A stretch of 64,000 nt of DNA from Candidatus Aminicenantes bacterium (GCA_963719985.1 CAVRDU010000001.1:32023-96022); one strand, 5' to 3'; counted from the stretch's first letter, positions 15,401-23,478 are shown. Numbers and translations are program-made. Notes: generated by a model not told the origin, from the sequence alone.

Positions 15401-15799
15401 GAGCTCCCGGAAGTCGGGATCGATGCCCGCCTCGATGGGCCGCTCCCGGAGCAGCCGGGCGCAGAAGGAGTGGATCGTCCCGATGAAGGATCTCTCCAGG
15501 CCGTTCAGGGCGGCGTCGAGCCGGTCCCGGACCGGGGCGTCCTTCTCCGCGGTCCGGGCCTTCTCCAGCCCGACCTGGAACCGCCCCCGGAGCTCGGCCG
15601 CAGCCTTGCGGGTGAAAGTGACGGCGGCCAGGGTGTCGATCTCCGTCCGGCCCGAGGCGAGAAGCGCGACCATGCGGTCGACCAGGCTCTTGGTCTTGCC
15701 CGATCCCGCCCCGGCCTCGACGAGGAAGGTCGTGTCGAGGTCGCTCACGATCCTGTCGCGGGCGGCCTGGTCGGGGGGAGCCTTCTTGGTCACGCTCAT
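12386..15799 (-). CDS. addA: AddA/UvrD-like SF1 helicase with C-terminal PD-(D/E)XK nuclease
   Basis: AGAGSGKT, TFTRKAAAEL, GTIHSFC, VDEFQDT, VGDPKQSIYRFRRAD, LHKAKGLE, RLMYVAATRARD, nuclease GAVDL...IADYKTD; start overlaps addB stop by 1 nt. Confidence 0.88.
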   Translation of the reverse strand: MSVTKKAPPDQAARDRIVSDLDTTFLVEAGAGSGKTKSLVDRMVALLASGRTEIDTLAAVTFTRKAAAELRGRFQVGLEKARTAEKDAPVRDRLDAALNGLERSFIGTIHSFCARLLRERPIEAGIDPDFRELEEHEDRVLREACWDEFQAKARLENAAALLGLDEAGLEPSELESAFEALSGFSDVEPVPGRTGPPDLTKARRALEKLLDLAQGLVPRERPEKGRDALQSVLVRSFRRRRNIGFADPRRLTETLELFDKTLAVTKNRWASKEDAETMLSASEDFQEKHAVPALREWREFRHARALAFLGPAVAFYAARRRAEGRLNFQDQLMLAAELLRENPEVRLYFKKRFRPILVDEFQDTDPVQAEILFLLAGRRDDAGRDWTKLEPEAGSLFLVGDPKQSIYRFRRADIDIYNLVKDRVVASGGAVLELSANFRTLGPVADWVNPLFDPARGGLFPERADTYQAGFMRLEAMRGPGSLPLAGVRRSPVPAVPRNAKEPIAESDSRRLADFVAWALRGNLVLDDGRGGSRPAEPGDFLVLFRYKDRMSVYARRLEEREIPYEISGSDAFAANGEIGEVMNLLRALEDPDDSVAAVAVLRGLFFGLSDQELLEHRAAGGGFCCADPDRGERGAERVRRAFGVLAGWRELAAKLPPSAALETILQRSGLLNHLVTAEMGGSRTGNVLKLVEVLRGRESEEMASFAAAVEFMEEWVGVQPVEEMSLAPGRRDAVRLMNLHKAKGLEAPVVWLANPAGVRDFEPDKHVRRADGKPRGHFRFTKPFGFARKTVSQPLGWEESAAEERNYEEAEENRLMYVAATRARDLLVVSAYEGDLGERKAWGPLEKGFDALPELPACPPVAAERTGSSAKRARKPGIVTPDEAMRARVGLQRKMAEAALAGTLHETVTSVARRDLEPPEWAKGGLGRWGSEVHVMLKSLGENWPAAAGALPEELAGEEALGRMARDVLVAAGRTPTDSRDLARHVAAIVRSGFWLRAMKAARRLFEVPFAVRVEPGTDGYKDLAPCPGSVARAGERVVVPAPGAAVFLTGAVDLAFFEPDGWVIADYKTDRLPEALADAAEDDRDRALGRLVDFYAPQVRLYTRYWAGLTGEKVKESGLYFTALEKWVRIAGSGA

Positions 15800-18700
15800 C
15801 ACTTGTACTCGTCGAGCCTGTCGTAGGCCGCGAAGACCTCGGGGCTCCCGTCCCTCTTGCGGACCGACGCCCTGGCCGCCTCGGGGCCGCAGACCGGGGC
15901 GAAGTCGCAGAACTTGCACTTGGCCTCGGGGCCGGCCAGGAAATAGCCCTTCCGGATCAGGGCCAGCAGGTCGTCGAGGAGGGCCGCGAGCCGGCCCCGG
16001 TCGAAGTCCTTGATGATCCTTTCCAAGCCTTCGCCGCGGCGGGACGGGAAGAGATAGCCGCTCTGGGCGACCCGCGGGCTCCCCGCCCCCGGCCTGGCCG
16101 CGAGGATCTTCTCCAGGGCGACGGCATAGAGGGCGTGCTGGATCATCCGGCCCCGTCCGAACTCGACCAGCTCCTCGTAATCCGAGGGGTTGCCCGTCTT
16201 GTAGTCCAGGACCCGGTAGGTCTCCCCGCCCAGCCGGTCGACCCGGTCGATGAAGCCCCTCAGAAGGAAGGAGCGGCGGTCGCCGAGGTCGATCCGCTCG
16301 TTCGCGATCTCGAGCTCGAACTCCAGCGGCTCGCCTCTCTCCTCGAGGTTCTCCTCGGCGGCGAGGAAGATGGCCAGGGAATCCAGGACGTTCCGCCGCT
16401 CGCTCTCGTAGATGGCCTCCGAGGGCGGCGGGACTTCTTCCTTCCAACGGGCCAGGGCCTCGCCGGAGACCTCTTCCATGAGCCCCCCATGCCTCAGGGC
16501 CGAGACCTCCTCCCCCGTCGCCTTGACCCTGGTCATGAACTCGCAGAGGACCTCGTGGAGGAGGCTGCCCCGCTGGAGGGGGTCGAGCCAGCGCGACCGG
16601 TCGAACTCGACATCCTCAGGCGCTTCGACCTTGAGCACGTGCCGCAGGAAATAGGCGAAGGGGCACCTGGCCAGAAGCTCGAGCCGGGACGCGGACATGA
16701 CGGCCCGGCCGCCGGCCAGGGGATCGATCTCGTCGCGGACAGGCCCGATGTCGACGATCCCGTCGAACTCCGTGAGCCTGTCGCCGGCCCGGGCGGCCGC
16801 GCCGGCCAAGCCCGAGGCCAGGTCGGCGAAATTGGCGGCGATCGTGCCCGGCCCGTCGGGACGGGCGCCGCTCCCCGCCAGCCGTTCCAGCCACCAGTCG
16901 ATCTCGTCGAAGGACCGCTCGGCGCCGCCGGGCAGGAATCCGGCCGCTTCGGGGACGCCCCGCTCGAGGGCCGCGTAGTCCAGCCCCGGCTCCCCCCGCA
17001 TGAGCCGGTAGGCCTGGAGCACGACCGAGGAGGGGAAGGACTCCCGGCCGTCGACGACGTCGAACGAGGGATAGCTGAAAACGACCCGGCCGCGGAGGGA
17101 GGAGAGCGTCGCGGCCAGGCCGAACAGGCCGGACCGGAGCTCGTCGGCCGACGTCGGCAGGTCGTCCGAGTGCGCGGCCCGCTCCTCGTCGAGGAGGACC
17201 GGGTCCTGGAGGCCCCGGCCGGGGAAGGTCGCCTCGTCGAGCCCGACGACGAAGGTCACCGGCCGGCCGGAATGCCCGCCGCCGGAAAAGGCGGAGACGT
17301 GGAGATGCCCGGCGAGAGGCGGCGAAGCGCCGACGCGGAGCGACGAGCCCGCCGTCCTCACGAGGGCTAGGGCCTCCTTGAGAGGCAGGTCCGGGAAACG
17401 GCCTTCCTCGCGGAGCTCGCCCAGCCGGTCGAGCAGGGCTTCGCGGGCCTTGCGGTCGAACGCCGTCTCGGCCCGCCCGTGCCCGCCGATGAGCGCGGCC
17501 AGCGCCGCGCAAACGGACCGCACGTCGGCCCGGCCTTCCGGATCGGACCCGGGAATGACGGAGAGGAGCCGCTCGACGCCGGCGGAAAGGGCGTCGATCT
17601 CGGCGATCGCCGCCGCCAGCGCCGCCCGGCGGGCCTCGTCGACGGCGCCGTCGCCTTCCCCGGTCCCCCGCTCGGTCCGCGCGAGGTCGGCCGCTTTGGC
17701 CGCGCGCAGGGCCAGGAGCCTGGGGAGATAACGCTCCCGGCCCCATCCGATCATGGCCCGGCGCAAATGGCGGCAGGCCGTCCGGGCCGGGAGCGGCGTC
17801 CCGGACGGCCCGGCGGGCAGGACTAGATCGCCGTTCTCGAGCAGCCGGCAGAGATGGACGCTGGAGAAGCCGTTCCCCAGCCAGTCGAGGGCGCCGAAGA
17901 AGAGCCTTCCCGGGGAGGTGAAAGACACGGGGACGCCCTCTCCGAAGGTCACGGGCAGGCCCGTCCGGGCCGAGAGGAGGTGGAAGATCGTGGCGTGGGC
18001 CGACCGCGGCGGGGCCAGGACCTCGGCGTGGTCGAACGGGAGCTTTTCCGAGAAGAGACGGCGCACGACCTCGCGGCATTCGTTGGCCGGCCCGAGGGCC
18101 CTGAAGATCTCGACGCTCCCTTCCCCGCGGAAGGCGGGGGCCTCGTCGGGAGCGAACAGCCAGGACAGCCGTTCCGCCCTCCCGGCCTCGTCCGTCCCCG
18201 GAGCCGGCCAAGCGTGCCGCGGCCGCTCCAATCCGAAGACCGGGTCGCCGGGAACGAGGACGAAGCGGTCGCCGGACGCGGCCCGAAGGAAGTCCCTCTC
18301 GAGCCGGCTCAACCGGCCGTCCCCGGGGCAGAGGACCCAGGCGGGCGGGAATTTCCCCAGCCCGGCCGCCCGGATGGCCGCCGCGAAAAAAGCGGCCTGA
18401 TCGAGGAGACCGTTCTCTTCGAGGGCCCGCTCGAAGCGGCCGACGAGAAGAGCGAACTCCCGGCCCTTGCGTTCGACCAGGAAGCGCTCCGGACGGACGG
18501 AGGCGGCGCTCAGGCCGGCCAGCCGGAAGTCCCGGACGGCCCGGTGGAGCGCGCGCGTCGATCCCGGGGAGAGGCCGGCCCGGCCGAAATACGCCAGCTC
18601 GCCTTCGTCGCGAAGCTCCCTCGCCACCCGGTCCGTCAGCGCGAGCTCGGCGGACGAGGTCATCGGCCTCCCCGCGGGCGCCCGGCCGCTCCTCTCCAGG

Positions 18701-18876
18701 ACCTCTCCGGCGAGCGCCCGCGGCGTGACGAAGCGGAGGTTGATCCAGGACCCGGCCTCGCGGGCCAGCGCCTCGCCGACCTGGCGACCGACGACGAAGG
18801 AGGGGCCGACGAAGACCTTTTCGTCGAGGGGGTGGTCGCGGCAGAAGGCCGCGAGGAATCGGACAGTCGCGTTCAC
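15799..18876 (-). CDS. addB: AddB-like protein: inactive helicase-like N-terminus plus PD-(D/E)XK nuclease with Fe-S staple
   Basis: SASRLELLARCPFAYF, RGSLLHEVL, RGFIDRVD, LDYKTG, IQHALYA, CKFCDFAPVC (four-Cys staple); no intact Walker A. Confidence 0.82.
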   Translation of the reverse strand: MNATVRFLAAFCRDHPLDEKVFVGPSFVVGRQVGEALAREAGSWINLRFVTPRALAGEVLERSGRAPAGRPMTSSAELALTDRVARELRDEGELAYFGRAGLSPGSTRALHRAVRDFRLAGLSAASVRPERFLVERKGREFALLVGRFERALEENGLLDQAAFFAAAIRAAGLGKFPPAWVLCPGDGRLSRLERDFLRAASGDRFVLVPGDPVFGLERPRHAWPAPGTDEAGRAERLSWLFAPDEAPAFRGEGSVEIFRALGPANECREVVRRLFSEKLPFDHAEVLAPPRSAHATIFHLLSARTGLPVTFGEGVPVSFTSPGRLFFGALDWLGNGFSSVHLCRLLENGDLVLPAGPSGTPLPARTACRHLRRAMIGWGRERYLPRLLALRAAKAADLARTERGTGEGDGAVDEARRAALAAAIAEIDALSAGVERLLSVIPGSDPEGRADVRSVCAALAALIGGHGRAETAFDRKAREALLDRLGELREEGRFPDLPLKEALALVRTAGSSLRVGASPPLAGHLHVSAFSGGGHSGRPVTFVVGLDEATFPGRGLQDPVLLDEERAAHSDDLPTSADELRSGLFGLAATLSSLRGRVVFSYPSFDVVDGRESFPSSVVLQAYRLMRGEPGLDYAALERGVPEAAGFLPGGAERSFDEIDWWLERLAGSGARPDGPGTIAANFADLASGLAGAAARAGDRLTEFDGIVDIGPVRDEIDPLAGGRAVMSASRLELLARCPFAYFLRHVLKVEAPEDVEFDRSRWLDPLQRGSLLHEVLCEFMTRVKATGEEVSALRHGGLMEEVSGEALARWKEEVPPPSEAIYESERRNVLDSLAIFLAAEENLEERGEPLEFELEIANERIDLGDRRSFLLRGFIDRVDRLGGETYRVLDYKTGNPSDYEELVEFGRGRMIQHALYAVALEKILAARPGAGSPRVAQSGYLFPSRRGEGLERIIKDFDRGRLAALLDDLLALIRKGYFLAGPEAKCKFCDFAPVCGPEAARASVRKRDGSPEVFAAYDRLDEYK

Positions 18877-19760
18877 TTCCGCCCCGGCACGCGGTAGAGA
18901 TGGATCTTGTGGTCGCGGCCGGCCTCGTCGGCGATGGCCTCGCTCAGGACGAGCCGGTCGTCCCAGCCGGGGATCATGTAGTCGTGGGAGACGACGCGGG
19001 CGCCCGGCCTGAGGTCCCGCTCGAAGACGGGCGCCAGGGCCTCAAGCGACTCCGGAAGGAGGTAGAGGGCCAGGACGGTGGCCTCGGAGAGGCGGGCCTT
19101 GGTGGCGTCCATCTCGAGGAAGCGGACGAGCTTGGCGACGCCCTCCCGCTCGGCCCCGGCCCGGCATTCGGCGACGAGGGCGGGATCGATCTCGATCCCG
19201 ACTCCGCGGGCCCCGTGGAGCTTCGCCGCCGCGATGACCATCCGGCCGTCGCCGCAGCCGACGTCGTAGAGGATGTCGTTCCTGTCGACGACCGCGGCCT
19301 CGAGCATGCGCTCGACCACGACCCGGGGCGTCGGGACGTAGGGGGCGAGGTCGGCCGCGTCCTCCCGGCCGTGGGAGCCGGGATAGACCCTGACGGAGTC
19401 GCTCGCGTCGTAGCGGAAGGAGTAGGGCTTGCCGGGATGCAGGGTATAGGTGGAGGTCCGCTTGCCGCTGTCGAACGAGATCTCGACGGGGAGGTCGGTG
19501 GCGATCCTGTCGACGGCCCCGACGGCGAGGGTCCGGGCGATCGGGACCTTGACGCCCCGGCCGGACGTGATGGCGTAGGCGATCGGCCGCTTGGTGACGT
19601 TGCGGAGGGTCGCGTCCTCCCGGAAGAGCGTCGCGGCGGTGGGCCGGGGGGCGAGGTCGATCCGGTTCTCCGCCTCCTTGTCCGCCCTTCCATAGAAGAG
19701 CGCCAGAACGGCCAGGAGGGCGAAGGAGACCGCGATCGCGGCCTTGACGGCCCGCTTCAA
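18873..19760 (-). CDS. Class I SAM-dependent methyltransferase with N-terminal membrane anchor/signal and extra beta domain
   Basis: APYVPTP, DVGCGDGRMV, GIEID, YLL, PGARVVSHDY; TTG start then hydrophobic AIAVSFALLAVLALF; stop overlaps addB GTG start. Confidence 0.82.
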   Translation of the reverse strand: MKRAVKAAIAVSFALLAVLALFYGRADKEAENRIDLAPRPTAATLFREDATLRNVTKRPIAYAITSGRGVKVPIARTLAVGAVDRIATDLPVEISFDSGKRTSTYTLHPGKPYSFRYDASDSVRVYPGSHGREDAADLAPYVPTPRVVVERMLEAAVVDRNDILYDVGCGDGRMVIAAAKLHGARGVGIEIDPALVAECRAGAEREGVAKLVRFLEMDATKARLSEATVLALYLLPESLEALAPVFERDLRPGARVVSHDYMIPGWDDRLVLSEAIADEAGRDHKIHLYRVPGRK

Positions 19761-19799
19761 GACGTTCCCCCGGCCCGAGCTGGATCCCGCATCCCTCCC

Positions 19800-19828
19800 A
19801 CGTTAAAACAGAGGGGCATCCAAGTCAA
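19800..19828 (-). promoter_or_regulatory. Sigma70-type promoter for methyltransferase-addB-addA operon
   Basis: TTGACT (19828-19823), 17-nt spacer, TAACGT (19805-19800). Confidence 0.45.
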
Positions 19829-19833
19829 CGCCG

Positions 19834-19905
19834 CTAGAAAAGGACGAGGAGCGCCGCGACCAGGACGACGACCGCCCACAGCACGACCCGCATCACCGTC
19901 TTCAT
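19834..19905 (-). CDS. Candidate 23-aa single-pass membrane micropeptide [23 protein letters not shown] (not in ORF track)
   Basis: ATG overlaps the RHH gene stop (ATGA); almost all codons end in G/C; basic N-terminus then 17 hydrophobic residues; TAG at 19836-19834. Confidence 0.55.
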
Positions 19906-20072
19906 TTCCGGTCCTCCTGTCCCCGGCGGAGGCGGCCGGCCTTGCGGACCGCCTCCTTGAGGACGTATTCCATCTGGGCGTTGATGCTGCGCAGCTCGTC
20001 GGCCGCCCACTTTTCCAGGGCGTCGTAGAGCGCCTCGTCAAGCCTCAGAAGGAACTTTTTCTTATCGCTCAC
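19902..20072 (-). CDS. Arc/ribbon-helix-helix DNA-binding protein, 56 aa (not in ORF track)
   Basis: GTG start; [56 protein letters not shown]: beta strand FLLRL, helix, RSxN turn, helix. Confidence 0.88.
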
Positions 20073-20087
20073 GGCCCGTTTTTCTCG

Positions 20088-20966
20088 TCAGGTATGGAGG
20101 GTCCCCGTGTTGACGATGGGATGCATCTCGGCCTCCGAGACGAGGGCCACGAGGAGGTTGTTGACCATGGCCGCCTTCCTCTCCTCGTCGAGCCGGACGA
20201 CGCCCTGGGCCTCGAGGCTCTTGAGGGCCATCTCGACCATGCCGATGGCGCCGTCGACGATCTGGCGCCGGGCGGCGATGATGGCCTCGGCCTGCTGGCG
20301 CCGGAGCATGGCCTGGGCGATCTCCGGGGCGTAGGCCAGATGGGACAGGCGGGCCTCGACGACGTGGAGGCCGGCGACGTCGAGCCGGTTCTGGACCTGG
20401 CTCTTGAGCTTCAAGGCGATCTCGTCCGGGTTGGCCCGGAGGGATTCCGTCTCCTGGTCGTGGGCGTCGTAGGGGTAGTGGGTGGCCAGCTGGCGAATGG
20501 CCGTCTCGCTCTGGATGGCCACGAAGTGCTGATAGCTCTCGACGTTGAACAGGGCCTTGGCCGAGTCGACGACGTGCCAGACGACGACGGCGGCGATCTC
20601 GATGGGGTTGCCCAGGGCGTCGTTGACCTTGAGCGTCTCGCTGTTGAAGTTGGAGATGCGCAGGGTCACCTTCTTCTTGACGGCGAAGGGATTGGTCCAG
20701 AAGAAGCCGGCCGTCCGGGCCGAGCCGACGTACTTGCCGAGGAAGGTGAAGACCTTGGACTCGTTCGGGTGGATGAGGAAGAAGCCGCCGAAGGTCATGA
20801 AGGCGAGGATGGACGCGCAAACGGCGACGATCATCCCCGCCGTCGCCCCGGCCTGGTCCACGTGGGTGACGAAGTGGCGGCCGCTGAAGAAGAACACGAC
20901 CAGATCGACGACGACCATGATCCAGCCGTTGAGGCCGAAGATCTGTTTCTCCTGGATGTCTTTCAT
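20088..20966 (-). CDS. SPFH (band 7) domain membrane protein
   Basis: Two N-terminal TM helices, GFFWTNPF, LKVNDALGNPIEIAAVVVW, QSETAIRQLATHYPYD, RLSHLAYAPEIAQAMLRRQQA; AAGGAGG RBS. Confidence 0.9.
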   Translation of the reverse strand: MKDIQEKQIFGLNGWIMVVVDLVVFFFSGRHFVTHVDQAGATAGMIVAVCASILAFMTFGGFFLIHPNESKVFTFLGKYVGSARTAGFFWTNPFAVKKKVTLRISNFNSETLKVNDALGNPIEIAAVVVWHVVDSAKALFNVESYQHFVAIQSETAIRQLATHYPYDAHDQETESLRANPDEIALKLKSQVQNRLDVAGLHVVEARLSHLAYAPEIAQAMLRRQQAEAIIAARRQIVDGAIGMVEMALKSLEAQGVVRLDEERKAAMVNNLLVALVSEAEMHPIVNTGTLHT

Positions 20967-20983
20967 TTGAACCTCCTTGAAAT

Positions 20984-21020
20984 TAATATCACTATAATAT
21001 CATTACGATATTAATGTCAA
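20984..21020 (-). promoter_or_regulatory. Promoter with three 8-bp operator boxes at 11-bp period
   Basis: Minus strand reads TTGACA-t-TAATATCG-taa-TGATATTA-tag-TGATATTA; -35 TTGACA 21020-21015, -10 TATAGT 20996-20991 (18-nt spacer); strongly AT-rich island in a GC-rich window. Confidence 0.75.
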
Positions 21021-21060
21021 GCGGTTTTTTTCGGCCGTTCCGGGCCCGGGCGGCCGCGGC

Positions 21061-23478
21061 TCACTCGTAGCGGAGCGATTCCACGGGATTGGCCCGGGCG
21101 GCCGCGTACGACTTGTAGCCGACGCTGAGGGTGGCGACGGCCAGCGTCAGGGCCGCGGCGAGAACGAAGGCCGCGGCGTCGATCCCGACGGCGTAGGGGA
21201 AATCGCGGAGCCAGGCCCGGGCGGCGAGATAGCCGATCGGCCAGGCCAGGGCGTTCGCGACGCCGATGAGGACGACGAATTCCCGGCAGAGGAGGACGAC
21301 GATCGAAGCCGAAGACGAGCCGAGCACTTTCCGGATCCCGATCTCCTTGGTCCTTTGCGCCGAGGCGTACGAGGCCAGCCCGAACAGACCGACGCAGCCG
21401 ATGAGGATCGCGACCGCGGAAAAGCCCCGGAAGATCGCCGCGAGGCGGGATTCGGCGGTGTGCCGGCCGTCGTAGAACTCGCCCAGGAAGAACGAATGAT
21501 AGGGATGGCCGGGGAAGATCTCTTTCCACTTCGCCTCGATCCGGGCCGCGACACCGCGGACGTCCTCCGTCTCCAGGCGCAGGGTCAGCCGCCTCACCCT
21601 GTTCTCGATGGGGCCCTCCTTCCCGACGAACTCGACGACCGTCGGTTCGATCGCGGCGTACAGGGACCTCTGATGGATGTCCCGGAAGACGCCGATGATC
21701 CGCTTCGCGACGGCCTCGCTCGAGAACGGGGCCCGGATCTCGATCTTCTTCCCGACGGGATCGTCCCACGCCAGCCTCTGGGCCGCGGTCGCGTTGATCA
21801 TCACCCCTTCGGCCTGGTCGACGAGGCTCGCCTTGGAAAACGCCTGCCCCCGTATCACTTCGATCCCGAGCGTCCCGACGAAGCCGTCGTCGACGAAGAA
21901 CTCGTCCATCCTCAGGGCCTGGTCGCGGGGATGCCCCTCGGGGAACGTCGAGACATTGAACAAGTACATCTCCCCGGGGACCATGGACGAGCTCCCGGCG
22001 CTCGCGACCCCAGGGATCCGGAGGACCTCGGTCTTGAAGGCTTCGAGGCCCCGCCTCACCTCTTCGTTGGGAACGTTCAGGACGAGCCTGTCTCCTTTGT
22101 CGAATCCCAAGTCCTTCGTCCGCATGTAGGTCATCTGGGAAAAAATGACGGAGGTGGCGACGATGAGCACGGTCATGGCGGCGAATTGGAACACGACGAG
22201 GGCCGACCGGATCCGGGCCCCCTTCGGCCCCCGCGCGAGCTCCCCCCGCGTCGCCGCCAGCGGCTTGAACGCGGACAGGACCACGGCCGGGTAGCTTCCC
22301 GCGAAGAGCCCCACGAAAAGGAAGACGCCGGCCAGGCCTCCTACGACGAACGGCGTTCCGAGAAAGCCGGCCGGGATGCCCCGGCCCGCGAGTCCTCCGA
22401 AATACGGGAGGAGCAGCCGGGCCGCGACGACGCCGACGCAACAGGCGATCAGGCTGAAAAGGAAAGATTCCCCGAGAAATTGAAGCACGAGCGACCCTCT
22501 CGGAGCGCCCAGGATCTTGCGCACACCGACCTCCCGGGCCCGGCCGGCCGAACGGGCGGTCGCGAGGTTCATGAAATTGACGCAGGCGAGGAGAAGGATG
22601 ACCCCGGCGATCGCCGCCAAAGTGGCGACGACGCGGCTGTCGCCATTCGCCCCGAGCTCCCCTTGAAGCCGCGAGCGGAGGTGGATCGTCCCGAGCGGCT
22701 GGAGGAACAGAGACAGCTCCACGCCCGTGTCCCGAAGGAGGGGATCGATGTACTCGGCCTCGAAGCCGTCGAGCTTGTTCTCCAGGGCTTCCGGATCGGC
22801 GCTCTCCCCGAGCTCGACGTAGGTGGCGAAGGAGCCTCCGCCCCACTCTCCGATCCTCGCGTCGTACTGGATGAACGTGGCGAACGAGGCGAGGACGGTG
22901 AAGGTGAAGTGGGAGTTCGCCGGGGGGGCCTGGACGACCCCGGTGACCCGGTAATCGAACCGGTTGTCCCACCTTACGGTCTTGCCGACGGGGTCCTCGT
23001 CCCCGAAGTACTTGCGGGCCGTCTCCTCCGTCATGACCATGGTAAAGGGAGCCTCGAGGGCCGTTTCCGGATCCCCTTTGACGAGCTTGAACGAGAAGAC
23101 GCTGAAGACCGAGCGGTCCGCGTAAAAGACCCCGTCCTGGAAGAAAACCCGGTCCCCTGTGGAGAAGGCCCGCCTGACCGTCGGGCTGAAGCGGACCGAA
23201 TCCACGACTTCGGGGAAATCAGCGACCATCGTCGGGCCGACCGGCGCGGGGGCCGTCGCGAACCGGTTCTCCGTCCCCTGGCTGGCGCGCGTCGAGGCGA
23301 CCCGGAAGATGCGGTCCGCGTTCGCGTGGTATCGGTCGAAGGAACGCTCGTACGCCACATAGGCGAGGATCAGGACGGCGCAGGCCATCCCGACACTCAG
23401 TCCGAAGACGTTGATCAGGGAGTAGGTTTTCTGCCTGACGAGGTTCCGGACGGCGATCCTGACGAGATCCCTGAGCAT
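21061..23478 (-). CDS. MacB/FtsX-like duplicated ABC transporter permease (orphan)
   Basis: INVFGLSVGMAC, two periplasmic domains, ACVNFMNLATARSAGRAREVGVRKILGA, RTKEIGIRKVLG, ANPVESLRYE; no adjacent ATPase. Confidence 0.9.
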   Translation of the reverse strand: MLRDLVRIAVRNLVRQKTYSLINVFGLSVGMACAVLILAYVAYERSFDRYHANADRIFRVASTRASQGTENRFATAPAPVGPTMVADFPEVVDSVRFSPTVRRAFSTGDRVFFQDGVFYADRSVFSVFSFKLVKGDPETALEAPFTMVMTEETARKYFGDEDPVGKTVRWDNRFDYRVTGVVQAPPANSHFTFTVLASFATFIQYDARIGEWGGGSFATYVELGESADPEALENKLDGFEAEYIDPLLRDTGVELSLFLQPLGTIHLRSRLQGELGANGDSRVVATLAAIAGVILLLACVNFMNLATARSAGRAREVGVRKILGAPRGSLVLQFLGESFLFSLIACCVGVVAARLLLPYFGGLAGRGIPAGFLGTPFVVGGLAGVFLFVGLFAGSYPAVVLSAFKPLAATRGELARGPKGARIRSALVVFQFAAMTVLIVATSVIFSQMTYMRTKDLGFDKGDRLVLNVPNEEVRRGLEAFKTEVLRIPGVASAGSSSMVPGEMYLFNVSTFPEGHPRDQALRMDEFFVDDGFVGTLGIEVIRGQAFSKASLVDQAEGVMINATAAQRLAWDDPVGKKIEIRAPFSSEAVAKRIIGVFRDIHQRSLYAAIEPTVVEFVGKEGPIENRVRRLTLRLETEDVRGVAARIEAKWKEIFPGHPYHSFFLGEFYDGRHTAESRLAAIFRGFSAVAILIGCVGLFGLASYASAQRTKEIGIRKVLGSSSASIVVLLCREFVVLIGVANALAWPIGYLAARAWLRDFPYAVGIDAAAFVLAAALTLAVATLSVGYKSYAAARANPVESLRYE

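What the first reader, a model, noticed from the sequence alone, without database searches (positions are those of the whole stretch)
19834..21020. Candidate autoregulated membrane-microdomain operon: SPFH protein, Arc/RHH regulator and a 23-aa membrane peptide
Seen: one promoter drives SPFH (20966-20088), a 56-aa RHH protein 15 nt later, and a TM micropeptide starting inside the RHH stop codon. The last two are missing from the ORF track. Known: SPFH proteins scaffold membrane proteases and small partner proteins (HflK/HflC are followed by the small membrane protein YjeT), and RHH proteins repress their own promoters. Inference: a compact membrane-stress or quality-control system with a built-in switch; the three-part form may be undescribed.
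Basis: partly seen in the sequence, partly recalled or inferred. Interest (0 to 1): 0.72.

Follow-up and report, generated by a model that had tools for sequence, protein, structure and literature searches.

The report
Self-repressed SPFH operon with membrane micropeptide
A membrane-scaffold (SPFH) gene is followed by a tiny Arc-type repressor whose probable DNA target lies on the operon's own promoter, a pairing kept across at least 15 bacterial phyla and not found in the papers I could search, and this lineage (Aminicenantes) adds a 23-residue membrane peptide as a third gene.

Summary
The SPFH protein (Pfam Band_7, stomatin-like AF2 model) and the 56-aa protein (Pfam Arc above cut-off; its family profile hits phage P22 Arc) are not a local oddity. 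In 160 related loci from metagenomes and named genomes, SPFH is followed by this RHH in about 148, spanning at least 15 phyla including Bacillus, Deinococcus and Parabacteroides.

Upstream of SPFH lies a conserved array of TGATATCA-type boxes at an 11-bp period over the -35/-10 region. Exact GATATC is 57 times denser there than elsewhere in the loci. Two loci without the RHH also lack the boxes. This supports autorepression, but no binding has been shown.

The 23-aa peptide is specific to Aminicenantes. A 22-23-codon ORF starting in the RHH stop (ATGA/GTGA) is kept in 15 of 18 distinct lineages and was lost by deletion in 3. It has T at 68% of second codon positions, and no comparable ORF occurs in about 130 other loci. 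It is probably a real accessory membrane peptide.

Other phyla put different membrane proteins in the third position (bPH_5, CPBP protease, tail-anchored proteins). I found no paper on the SPFH-Arc pairing. Physiological role and co-transcription remain inferred.

The parts
21015..21020 (-). -35 hexamer TTGACA of the operon promoter
   Evidence: Promoter scan: 11 of 12 matches, and the only site in 19600-21200. TTGAC(A/T) sits at the same place in most related loci.
20991..20996 (-). -10 hexamer TATAGT, overlapping operator boxes 2 and 3
20984..21013 (-). Probable RHH operator: three 8-bp boxes at an 11-bp period (TAATATCG 21013-21006, TGATATTA 21002-20995, TGATATTA 20991-20984), variants of TGATATCA
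   Evidence: It is the only three-box match in the 64-kb window. The same array (consensus gaTaTCAaaaTGATATCATt.TGATATCA) lies upstream of SPFH in 126-130 of 143 loci, with GATATC 57 times denser than in the rest of the loci. It is also present in the B. thuringiensis and Deinococcus records, with a derived two-box form in the Parabacteroides record. It is absent in L111 and L141, which lack the RHH.
20972..20978 (-). Shine-Dalgarno AAGGAGG for the SPFH gene
   Evidence: Read from the sequence.
20088..20966 (-). SPFH/Band-7 membrane scaffold protein, 292 aa, stomatin-like, with an N-terminal helical hairpin
   Evidence: Pfam Band_7 2.5e-19. AF2 model pLDDT 90.4, with helices 14-36 and 42-59, the SPFH domain, and helices 214-253 and 261-277. 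Foldseek top hit is human stomatin at 1.8e-14, followed by HflK/C, prohibitin and QmcA. 784 clusters at 50% identity have E<=1e-30.
19902..20072 (-). Arc-type ribbon-helix-helix protein, 56 aa, GTG start; probable autorepressor
   Evidence: Pfam Arc 23.1 bits, above the 20.4 cut-off. The family profile hits P22 Arc (pArc 2.6e-6, Arc 0.0047) and shares its RSVN motif. AF2 gives an extended N-terminus, helices 13-25 and 30-44, and a disordered tail. It follows SPFH in about 148 of 160 loci.
19834..19905 (-). 23-aa single-pass membrane micropeptide ORF ([23 protein letters not shown]), coupled to the RHH stop by ATGA, with AGGAGG 7 nt upstream
   Evidence: A 22-23-aa hydrophobic ORF sits at the same overlap in 15 of 18 distinct Aminicenantes lineages. 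T at codon position 2 is 68% and GC3 is 91%. None of about 130 non-Aminicenantes loci has a comparable ORF.
19800..19828 (-). Next promoter (TTGACT 19828-19823, 17-nt spacer, TAACGT 19805-19800) for the methyltransferase-AddB operon; it marks the 3' boundary of the cassette
   Evidence: Read from the sequence. The same TTGACT..TAnnnT arrangement follows the peptide stop in relatives. Only a weak terminator-like hairpin lies at 19832-19815.

Best explanation
This is an autorepressed SPFH operon. A sigma-70-type promoter is overlaid by three phased 8-bp boxes, which are variants of TGATATCA spaced one helical turn apart. The transcript encodes three products. The first is a stomatin-like SPFH protein anchored by an N-terminal helical hairpin, which by analogy with solved relatives forms an oligomeric cage at the membrane (side not established). 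The second is a minimal Arc-type RHH protein, poorly initiated (GTG/TTG start, no strong SD). Its dimers bind the boxes side by side, as Arc does on its operator, and occlude the -10 region and transcription start, so that SPFH output is held at a set level. The third, in Aminicenantes only, is a well-initiated 23-residue single-pass membrane peptide translated by ATGA coupling. It most likely inserts next to or inside the SPFH assembly as a small partner or client. Other phyla fill this position with bPH_5, CPBP-protease or tail-anchored membrane proteins. Shown here: gene identities and folds; cross-phylum linkage of SPFH, RHH and operator; conservation of the peptide ORF. Inferred: DNA binding and repression, co-transcription, peptide translation, SPFH-peptide contact and the physiological role.
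For: Anatomy and promoter.
Family assignments.
Linkage: the RHH is found downstream of SPFH on the same strand in nearly all loci that extend far enough, 73 of 80 metagenome loci and 75 of 80 named genomes from at least 14 phyla. It is also present in the Bacillus, Deinococcus and Parabacteroides annotated records. Gaps are often -4 to +20 nt.
Operator: GATATC occurs in the 100 nt upstream of SPFH in 126 of 143 loci, a 57-fold enrichment, with an 11-bp phased consensus. It is unique in the window. L111 and L141 lack both the RHH and the operator. RHH proteins with a beta-strand xPLR go with two exact GATATC 11 bp apart in 14 of 15 loci, against 6 of 100 for xLLR (probably one clade, so weak evidence).
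RHH conservation: K5, R10, W22, R28, S29, E35 and L38 are invariant across phyla.
Peptide. It travels with SPFH-RHH even where the downstream gene differs (melibiase versus methyltransferase).
Transcription: the SPFH gene is covered by sediment metatranscriptome contigs.
Against: There is no experimental binding or expression data for any member. No RNA contig spans SPFH-RHH or RHH-peptide. About 10 loci with the RHH show no clear operator within 150 nt; four of these have one about 230 nt upstream. For the peptide, pN/pS is 0.72, so the constraint is on hydrophobicity and length and not on residue identity. Three lineages deleted it, so it is dispensable. A 56-aa RHH has no sensor domain, so what relieves repression is unknown.
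Confidence: 0.7

Rival explanations
1. Membrane-state feedback switch. The RHH is not a constitutive autorepressor. Instead it is captured or released by the cytoplasmic face of the SPFH assembly, as PspA does with PspF, or it is degraded by a protease that the SPFH cage controls. Operon transcription would then report scaffold load or membrane damage, and the third-position membrane protein or peptide would act as sensor or adaptor. This extends the best explanation and does not exclude it.
For: The RHH core is unusually conserved across phyla, 45-75% identity over 47 residues with 7 invariant positions, more than a simple autoregulator needs. The RHH has no ligand domain. The model's paired N-terminal helices would put the SPFH domain on the same side of the membrane as its N-terminus, which is cytoplasmic only if the N-terminus is inside; that is not established here. 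The third position is nearly always a membrane protein.
Against: No interaction evidence exists. The RHH C-terminal tail, the obvious docking element, varies in length and sequence. Strong conservation could reflect the conserved operator alone.
Confidence: 0.2
2. The 23-codon ORF is not a functional gene. It would be a by-product of termination-reinitiation at the RHH stop, or a spacer kept open by GC-rich composition. The functional unit here would be only SPFH, RHH and operator.
For: pN/pS is 0.72. Three lineages deleted it. It is absent outside Aminicenantes. There is no proteomic or Ribo-seq evidence.
Against: Start overlap, length (22-23 codons) and an SD-like GGAG are kept in 15 lineages despite pS of 0.49. 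T at codon position 2 is 68%, against 25% in the RHH gene, and GC3 is 91%, as in coding DNA. One alternative frame carries 1-4 stops per sequence; the other is also open in all 15. No comparable ORF occurs in about 130 other loci. Losses are by deletion, not by decay.
Confidence: 0.2
3. Toxin-antitoxin or abortive-infection pair: the RHH is an antitoxin and SPFH a membrane-acting toxin or effector. NCBI names the Bacillus partner 'HicB family antitoxin'.
For: RHH proteins are common antitoxins, and there is a weak ParD_like hit at 19.3 bits, below cut-off. The annotation appears. Some copies lie on large plasmids or chromids.
Against: PADLOC gives no hit for any of the three proteins. The RHH has no conserved toxin-binding extension, only the fold plus a variable tail. 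SPFH is a conserved scaffold fold, not a known toxin. The cassette is single-copy and widespread, and in Aminicenantes it sits in conserved chromosomal synteny. 24 of 30 plasmid records are non-mobilizable large replicons.
Confidence: 0.03

Closest known systems
Phage P22 Arc repressor and its operator (Arc/MetJ ribbon-helix-helix superfamily, Pfam PF03869)
   Same: Similar size (56 versus 53 aa). The two align end to end and share the RSVN turn and the K-x-GR C-terminal helix end. The predicted topology is beta-alpha-alpha. The DNA boxes are spaced 11 bp apart over a promoter, the same spacing as Arc's two dimer sites (my own knowledge of Arc).
   Different: It is chromosomal, not phage-borne. 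It is linked to an SPFH gene across phyla. The operator has three TGATATCA-type boxes instead of Arc's 21-bp two-site operator. The beta-strand residues differ (KKFLLR versus PQFNLR). Binding is untested.
Prokaryotic stomatin-type SPFH operons with an NfeD partner (E. coli QmcA-YbbJ, P. horikoshii PH1511/PH1510; SPFH1/2/5 of Hinderhofer et al. 2009, PMC2636767)
   Same: A stomatin-like SPFH fold with an N-terminal membrane anchor and a C-terminal helix. It lies in a compact operon with a small partner gene.
   Different: The operon has no NfeD gene; the conserved partner is a DNA-binding RHH. The sequence profile is only distantly related to solved SPFH proteins (best 4e-5). The 2009 classification reports conserved operons only for the NfeD-linked groups, calls subfamilies 6-12 undocumented, and never uses the term 'DNA-binding'.
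HflK/HflC modulators of FtsH (with yjeT downstream in E. coli)
   Same: SPFH fold (Foldseek 2e-12).
   Different: It is not an HflK/C equivalog (TIGR01932/01933 at 19.2 and 17.2 bits against cut-offs of 134 and 159). There is one SPFH gene, not a pair. The model's paired N-terminal helices, rather than the single N-terminal TM of HflK/C (my own knowledge), imply a different membrane orientation of the SPFH domain. No ftsH linkage was seen in the operon.
Small regulatory membrane peptides of bacteria (e.g. KdpF, AcrZ, MgtS, CydX; recalled from my own knowledge)
   Same: It is under 50 aa, with a single hydrophobic helix after a short basic N-terminus. It is encoded inside an operon with its presumed partner and is missed by gene callers.
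   Different: No sequence relation to any of these. Its partner and its translation are unproven. It is restricted to one bacterial class.

Membership tests
SPFH / Band 7 superfamily (Pfam PF01145) | Sequence match to the SPFH domain above the curated threshold | tested here: met
   70.4 bits against a cut-off of 23.6, residues 65-233.
SPFH / Band 7 superfamily (Pfam PF01145) | SPFH alpha/beta fold followed by a long helix, with an N-terminal membrane anchor | tested here: met
   AF2 pLDDT 90.4, with a helical hairpin at 14-59, strands at 62-132 and 200-212, and a helix at 214-253. Foldseek: stomatin 1.8e-14, HflK 2e-12, QmcA 3.4e-10.
SPFH / Band 7 superfamily (Pfam PF01145) | Assembly into a large ring or cage on the membrane | not testable with these tools
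   No multimer prediction was available. Inferred from solved relatives.
HflK / HflC (NCBIfam TIGR01933 / TIGR01932) | Equivalog-level sequence score | tested here: not met
   17.2 and 19.2 bits against cut-offs of 159.4 and 134.4.
Stomatin-NfeD operon (SPFH1/2/5 type) | NfeD-family gene adjacent in the same operon | tested here: not met
   The genes following SPFH are the RHH and the peptide. No Pfam NfeD hit on operon or flanking ORFs. The same holds in related loci, where third genes are bPH_5, Rce1-like or unknown.
Arc/MetJ ribbon-helix-helix repressors (Pfam PF03869 Arc) | Sequence match above threshold and similarity to P22 Arc | tested here: met
   Arc 23.1 bits against 20.4. Profile of 61 homologues against the PDB: pArc 2.6e-6, Arc 0.0047.
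Arc/MetJ ribbon-helix-helix repressors (Pfam PF03869 Arc) | Beta-strand, helix, helix topology | tested here: met
   The AF2 monomer has an extended 1-12, H13-25 and H30-44. The strand pairs only in a dimer, which was not modelled.
Arc/MetJ ribbon-helix-helix repressors (Pfam PF03869 Arc) | Binds repeated operator sites at its own promoter and represses | not testable with these tools
   Comparative support only: conserved phased boxes over the promoter, joint absence with the RHH, and beta-strand/operator co-variation.
Type II toxin-antitoxin module with an RHH antitoxin | Adjacent toxin-family gene and an antitoxin with a toxin-binding extension | tested here: not met
   No toxin family in the operon. 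No PADLOC hit. The RHH tail is short and variable.
Bacterial small membrane proteins (<50 aa) | Short ORF with one transmembrane helix, conserved across related genomes | tested here: met
   15 of 18 lineages keep it. T2 is 68%. Maximum hydropathy is 2.9-3.5.
Bacterial small membrane proteins (<50 aa) | Demonstrated translation | not testable with these tools
   No Ribo-seq or proteomics exists for this uncultured lineage. RNA contigs do not cover the ORF convincingly.

The most novel reading that the evidence does not exclude
The SPFH-Arc cassette is an ancient, cross-phylum membrane-state sensor. The assembled SPFH cage would hold or release its sensor-less Arc-type repressor, or control its proteolysis, so that transcription reads out scaffold occupancy or membrane damage. 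The variable third-position membrane protein, reduced here to a 23-residue peptide, would be the client or adaptor that sets the switch. That would give this SPFH subfamily a defined signalling output and make SPFH function directly testable through a reporter on the TGATATCA promoter.
Probability: 0.18. Interest if true: 0.85.

Novelty: new variant of a known kind. Interest (0 to 1): 0.62.

Why it matters
Bacterial SPFH proteins are ubiquitous, but their functions are poorly defined. The only well-known conserved operon partner is NfeD. Here a distinct, large SPFH subfamily (784 clusters at 50% identity with E<=1e-30) has a dedicated Arc-type regulator and an operator conserved from Bacillota to Deinococcota to Acidobacteriota. 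That provides three things: a simple reporter (the TGATATCA promoter) for finding the conditions that induce the scaffold; tractable hosts (B. thuringiensis/cereus group, Deinococcus, Parabacteroides) for genetics; and a list of lineage-specific third genes as candidate clients of the scaffold (micropeptide, bPH_5 proteins, CPBP protease). The Aminicenantes micropeptide is also a clear example of a conserved gene that annotation pipelines miss.

Tried and rejected
I therefore could not search the window's own genome for further operator sites or a second SPFH/NfeD, nor do a structured taxonomic survey. I used the search for related loci on metagenomes and GTDB genomes instead.
- RNA evidence for co-transcription: metatranscriptome contigs from four sediment or soil runs cover parts of the SPFH gene at 90-100% identity, but none spans a gene junction. 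Inconclusive.
- Origin of the peptide by duplication of the N-terminal TM anchor of the downstream methyltransferase: amino-acid identity is only 13-30%, no more than generic TM likeness. Rejected as unsupported.
- Anti-phage defence: no PADLOC hit.
- Rfam: only a chance-level SAM riboswitch hit inside the SPFH CDS (18 bits against 44).
- Classical dN/dS on the peptide is weak (0.72). Composition periodicity and the background rate of such ORFs are the informative measures.
- Literature searches (SPFH or stomatin with ribbon-helix-helix, Arc-like, CopG; TGATATCA operator; the SPFH classification paper and the 2026 Pseudomonas SPFH survey) gave no description of the pairing. The library covers open-access papers only.

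Full report
**Observation**

On the minus strand the window carries a near-consensus promoter: TTGACA at 21020-21015, an 18-nt spacer, and TATAGT at 20996-20991. It is the only promoter-like site in 19600-21200, where shuffled sequence gives 0.2 on average.

It is followed by AAGGAGG and a 292-aa ORF (20966-20088). After 15 nt comes a GTG-initiated 56-aa ORF (20072-19902). A 23-aa ORF (19905-19834) follows, whose ATG overlaps the preceding stop as ATGA and has AGGAGG 7 nt upstream.

Family scores:
- The 292-aa protein is SPFH/Band_7 (70.4 bits against a cut-off of 23.6).
- The 56-aa protein is an Arc-like RHH (23.1 bits against 20.4). RHH_5 at 23.5 bits is just below its own cut-off.
- The SPFH protein is far below the HflK and HflC equivalog cut-offs.

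Names attached to near-identical proteins place the organism in Candidatus Aminicenantes, Acidobacteriota.

**The conserved unit is SPFH + RHH + operator**

I fetched 80 metagenome loci and 80 loci from named GTDB genomes using the SPFH protein, with SPFH identity running from 88% down to 47%.

In 73 and 75 of these loci respectively, tblastn finds the RHH downstream on the same strand. Most of the exceptions are loci that end too early. The gap between the two genes is usually -4 to +20 nt. In some clades one or two extra genes (0.3-1.8 kb) sit between them.

The named genomes cover:
- Aminicenantes and other Acidobacteriota
- Kryptoniota
- Ignavibacteriota
- Bacteroidota
- Deinococcota
- Spirochaetota
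- Cyanobacteriota
- Krumholzibacteriota
- Verrucomicrobiota
- Planctomycetota
- Gemmatimonadota
- Myxococcota
- Chloroflexota
- Gammaproteobacteria

Annotated records add three more cases. In Bacillus thuringiensis the partner is named 'HicB family antitoxin'. In Deinococcus it is 'hypothetical protein'. In Parabacteroides distasonis it is 'Arc family DNA-binding protein'.

The SPFH subfamily is large: 784 clusters at 50% identity have E<=1e-30.

**The operator**

I aligned the 110 nt upstream of the SPFH start in 143 loci. This shows a recurrent array of TGATATCA-type boxes between and over the -35 and -10 hexamers.
- Exact GATATC occurs in the 100 nt upstream of SPFH in 126 of 143 loci. That is 10.8 per kb against 0.19 per kb in the rest of the same loci, a 57-fold difference.
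- The anchored consensus is gaTaTCAaaaTGATATCATt.TGATATCA, three boxes at an 11-bp period.
- In the window the boxes are TAATATCG (21013-21006), TGATATTA (21002-20995) and TGATATTA (20991-20984). No other three-box match exists in the 64 kb.
- The same array precedes the B. thuringiensis and Deinococcus genes, with a derived two-box form in Parabacteroides.
- Two loci with ample downstream sequence but no RHH (L111, L141) also lack the boxes. Four Verrucomicrobia loci have the array about 230 nt upstream.
- RHH proteins whose beta-strand reads xPLR go with two perfect GATATC 11 bp apart in 14 of 15 loci, against 6 of 100 for the xLLR type. This is probably one clade, so it counts as one event.

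Together this is strong comparative evidence that the RHH recognises these boxes and represses its own promoter. Binding itself has not been shown.

**The proteins**

*RHH.* It aligns end to end with phage P22 Arc and shares the RSVN turn. A profile of 61 homologues hits Arc entries in the PDB, at 2.6e-6 for the tandem pArc and 0.0047 for native Arc. Seven positions are invariant across phyla. The AF2 model (pLDDT 83) has an extended N-terminus, helices 13-25 and 30-44, and a disordered tail. Tails vary in length and sequence across loci. All Aminicenantes copies start with GTG or TTG and lack a strong SD, which fits low-level synthesis of a repressor; this last point is inference.

*SPFH.* The AF2 model has pLDDT 90.4. 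It shows a helical hairpin (14-36, 42-59), the SPFH domain, a 40-residue helix and a further helix. Foldseek ranks human stomatin first (1.8e-14), then HflK/C, erlin, prohibitin and QmcA. By sequence the family profile is only remotely related to any solved SPFH protein (4e-5). If both N-terminal helices span or re-enter the membrane, the SPFH domain lies on the same side as the N-terminus. That is probably the cytoplasm, where the RHH is; this is inference.

**The micropeptide**

I combined the loci above with eight look-ups of RHH variants. Among distinct Aminicenantes lineages:
- 15 of 18 keep an ORF of 22-23 codons starting in the RHH stop (ATGA, once GTGA). It begins M-K/R-T, continues with about 18 hydrophobic residues and then stops.
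- 3 lineages (L003, L171, L175) lost it by deletion. In L171 and L003 the downstream membrane-anchored methyltransferase gene begins 4 nt before the stop of the short ORF left after the RHH stop.
- The sequence evolves fast (pS 0.49, pN 0.35, pN/pS 0.72, against 0.34 for the RHH).
- T occupies 68% of second codon positions, against 25% in the RHH. GC3 is 91%. One alternative frame carries 1-4 stops per sequence; the other is also open in all 15.
- An SD-like GGAG persists upstream although the RHH tail sequence varies.
- As a background control, no small hydrophobic ORF (<=60 aa) starts within -14 to +40 nt of the RHH stop in any of about 130 non-Aminicenantes loci.
- The peptide stays with SPFH-RHH where the next gene differs, for example melibiase versus methyltransferase.
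- Gene callers never report it.

I conclude that selection maintains a short transmembrane helix here. It is a real but dispensable accessory gene, at roughly 0.75-0.8 probability. Translation is not shown.

**What other lineages put in the third position**
- Verrucomicrobia insert a 2-TM bPH_5 protein between SPFH and the RHH.
- Deinococcota and others have a bPH_5 protein after the RHH.
- Ignavibacteriota and Bacteroidota have a roughly 170-aa tail-anchored protein, either before or after the RHH.
- Lysobacterales-type loci have a CPBP/Rce1-like intramembrane protease or a 67-aa 2-TM protein, often starting in the RHH stop.

The recurrent theme is a membrane protein of variable identity. This fits the idea that it is a client or adaptor of the scaffold; that reading is inference.

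**Mechanism**

The best-supported reading has four steps.
1. The promoter drives SPFH, the RHH and the third gene.
2. RHH dimers bind the phased boxes on one DNA face and block the -10 region and transcription start.
3. This sets SPFH dosage by negative feedback.
4. The peptide inserts into the membrane with the scaffold.

What relieves repression is unknown, because the RHH has no sensor domain. The most interesting reading not excluded is that the SPFH assembly itself, or a protease it controls, titrates the repressor.

A toxin-antitoxin reading is unlikely. There is no toxin family, no PADLOC hit and no conserved toxin-binding tail, and in Aminicenantes the cassette sits in conserved chromosomal synteny.

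**Comparison with known systems and novelty**

The RHH passes the tests for Arc-family membership that could be run here. The SPFH protein is a member of the superfamily, but it is not HflK/C and not an NfeD-linked stomatin operon.

The 2009 classification of prokaryotic SPFH proteins reports conserved operons only for the NfeD-linked groups. It calls subfamilies 6-12 undocumented, and the term 'DNA-binding' does not occur in its text (PMC2636767). A 2026 survey of Pseudomonas SPFH proteins mentions no such partner either (PMC13086221). Full-text searches pairing SPFH or stomatin with ribbon-helix-helix, Arc or CopG, and searches for TGATATCA with 'operator', found nothing relevant.

Earlier AI notes of this scan describe the same cassette in other genomes. 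They agree with my results but are not independent evidence.

I rate this a new variant of a known kind: an SPFH operon whose conserved partner is a dedicated Arc-type autorepressor, here with a lineage-specific micropeptide.

Noticed in passing
window 18873-19760 (-) and 15799-18876 (-): A 295-aa protein has an N-terminal TM anchor and a methyltransferase domain. Its best NCBIfam hit is archaeal protein-lysine N-methyltransferase NF041081, at 115.9 bits, below the cut-off of 200. Its stop overlaps by 4 nt the start of a 1025-aa AddB-like PD-(D/E)XK nuclease. The SPFH-RHH-(peptide)-MTase-AddB order is conserved in many Aminicenantes contigs.
   Followed up: partly
L171:1668-1705 and L003:3584-3655: In lineages that deleted the micropeptide, the membrane-anchored methyltransferase gene moves up to the RHH. 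In L171 it starts in the stop (ATGA) of an 11-codon remnant of the peptide ORF. The methyltransferase may then become the third gene of the operon.
   Followed up: partly
L124:3882-4370, L103 downstream of the RHH, L070/L051/L119/L122 downstream of the RHH, L016:3382-3890: Other phyla place different membrane proteins in the cassette: 2-TM bPH_5 proteins, CPBP/Rce1-like intramembrane proteases, roughly 170-aa tail-anchored proteins of no known family, and 67-aa 2-TM proteins. These are candidate SPFH clients.
   Followed up: partly
L034, L043, L050, L051, L067, L070, L072, L076, L116, L119, L122, L127, L138 (upstream of SPFH): A sub-clade whose RHH beta-strand reads K-A-Y-P-L-R-I has a two-box operator (two perfect GATATC 11 bp apart, with T-rich flanks) instead of the three-box form. 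This may be protein-DNA co-variation.
   Followed up: partly
window 20122-20962: Contigs from sediment and soil metatranscriptomes (runs X25-X28) match the SPFH gene at 92-100% identity. The gene, or a close relative's copy, therefore appears to be expressed in situ, although DNA carry-over cannot be excluded.
   Followed up: partly
window 19815-19832 (-): Only a weak terminator-like hairpin (6 bp, 3 of them G-C) lies between the peptide stop and the next promoter, whose -35 starts 5 nt after the stop. Read-through from the SPFH operon into the methyltransferase-AddBA operon is possible.
   Followed up: no
window 21061-23478 (-): An 805-aa MacB/FtsX-type ABC permease ends 40 nt upstream of the SPFH promoter. 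In most related Aminicenantes contigs the upstream neighbour is instead an aldo/keto reductase with Fe-S motifs, so the 5' flank is not conserved.
   Followed up: no
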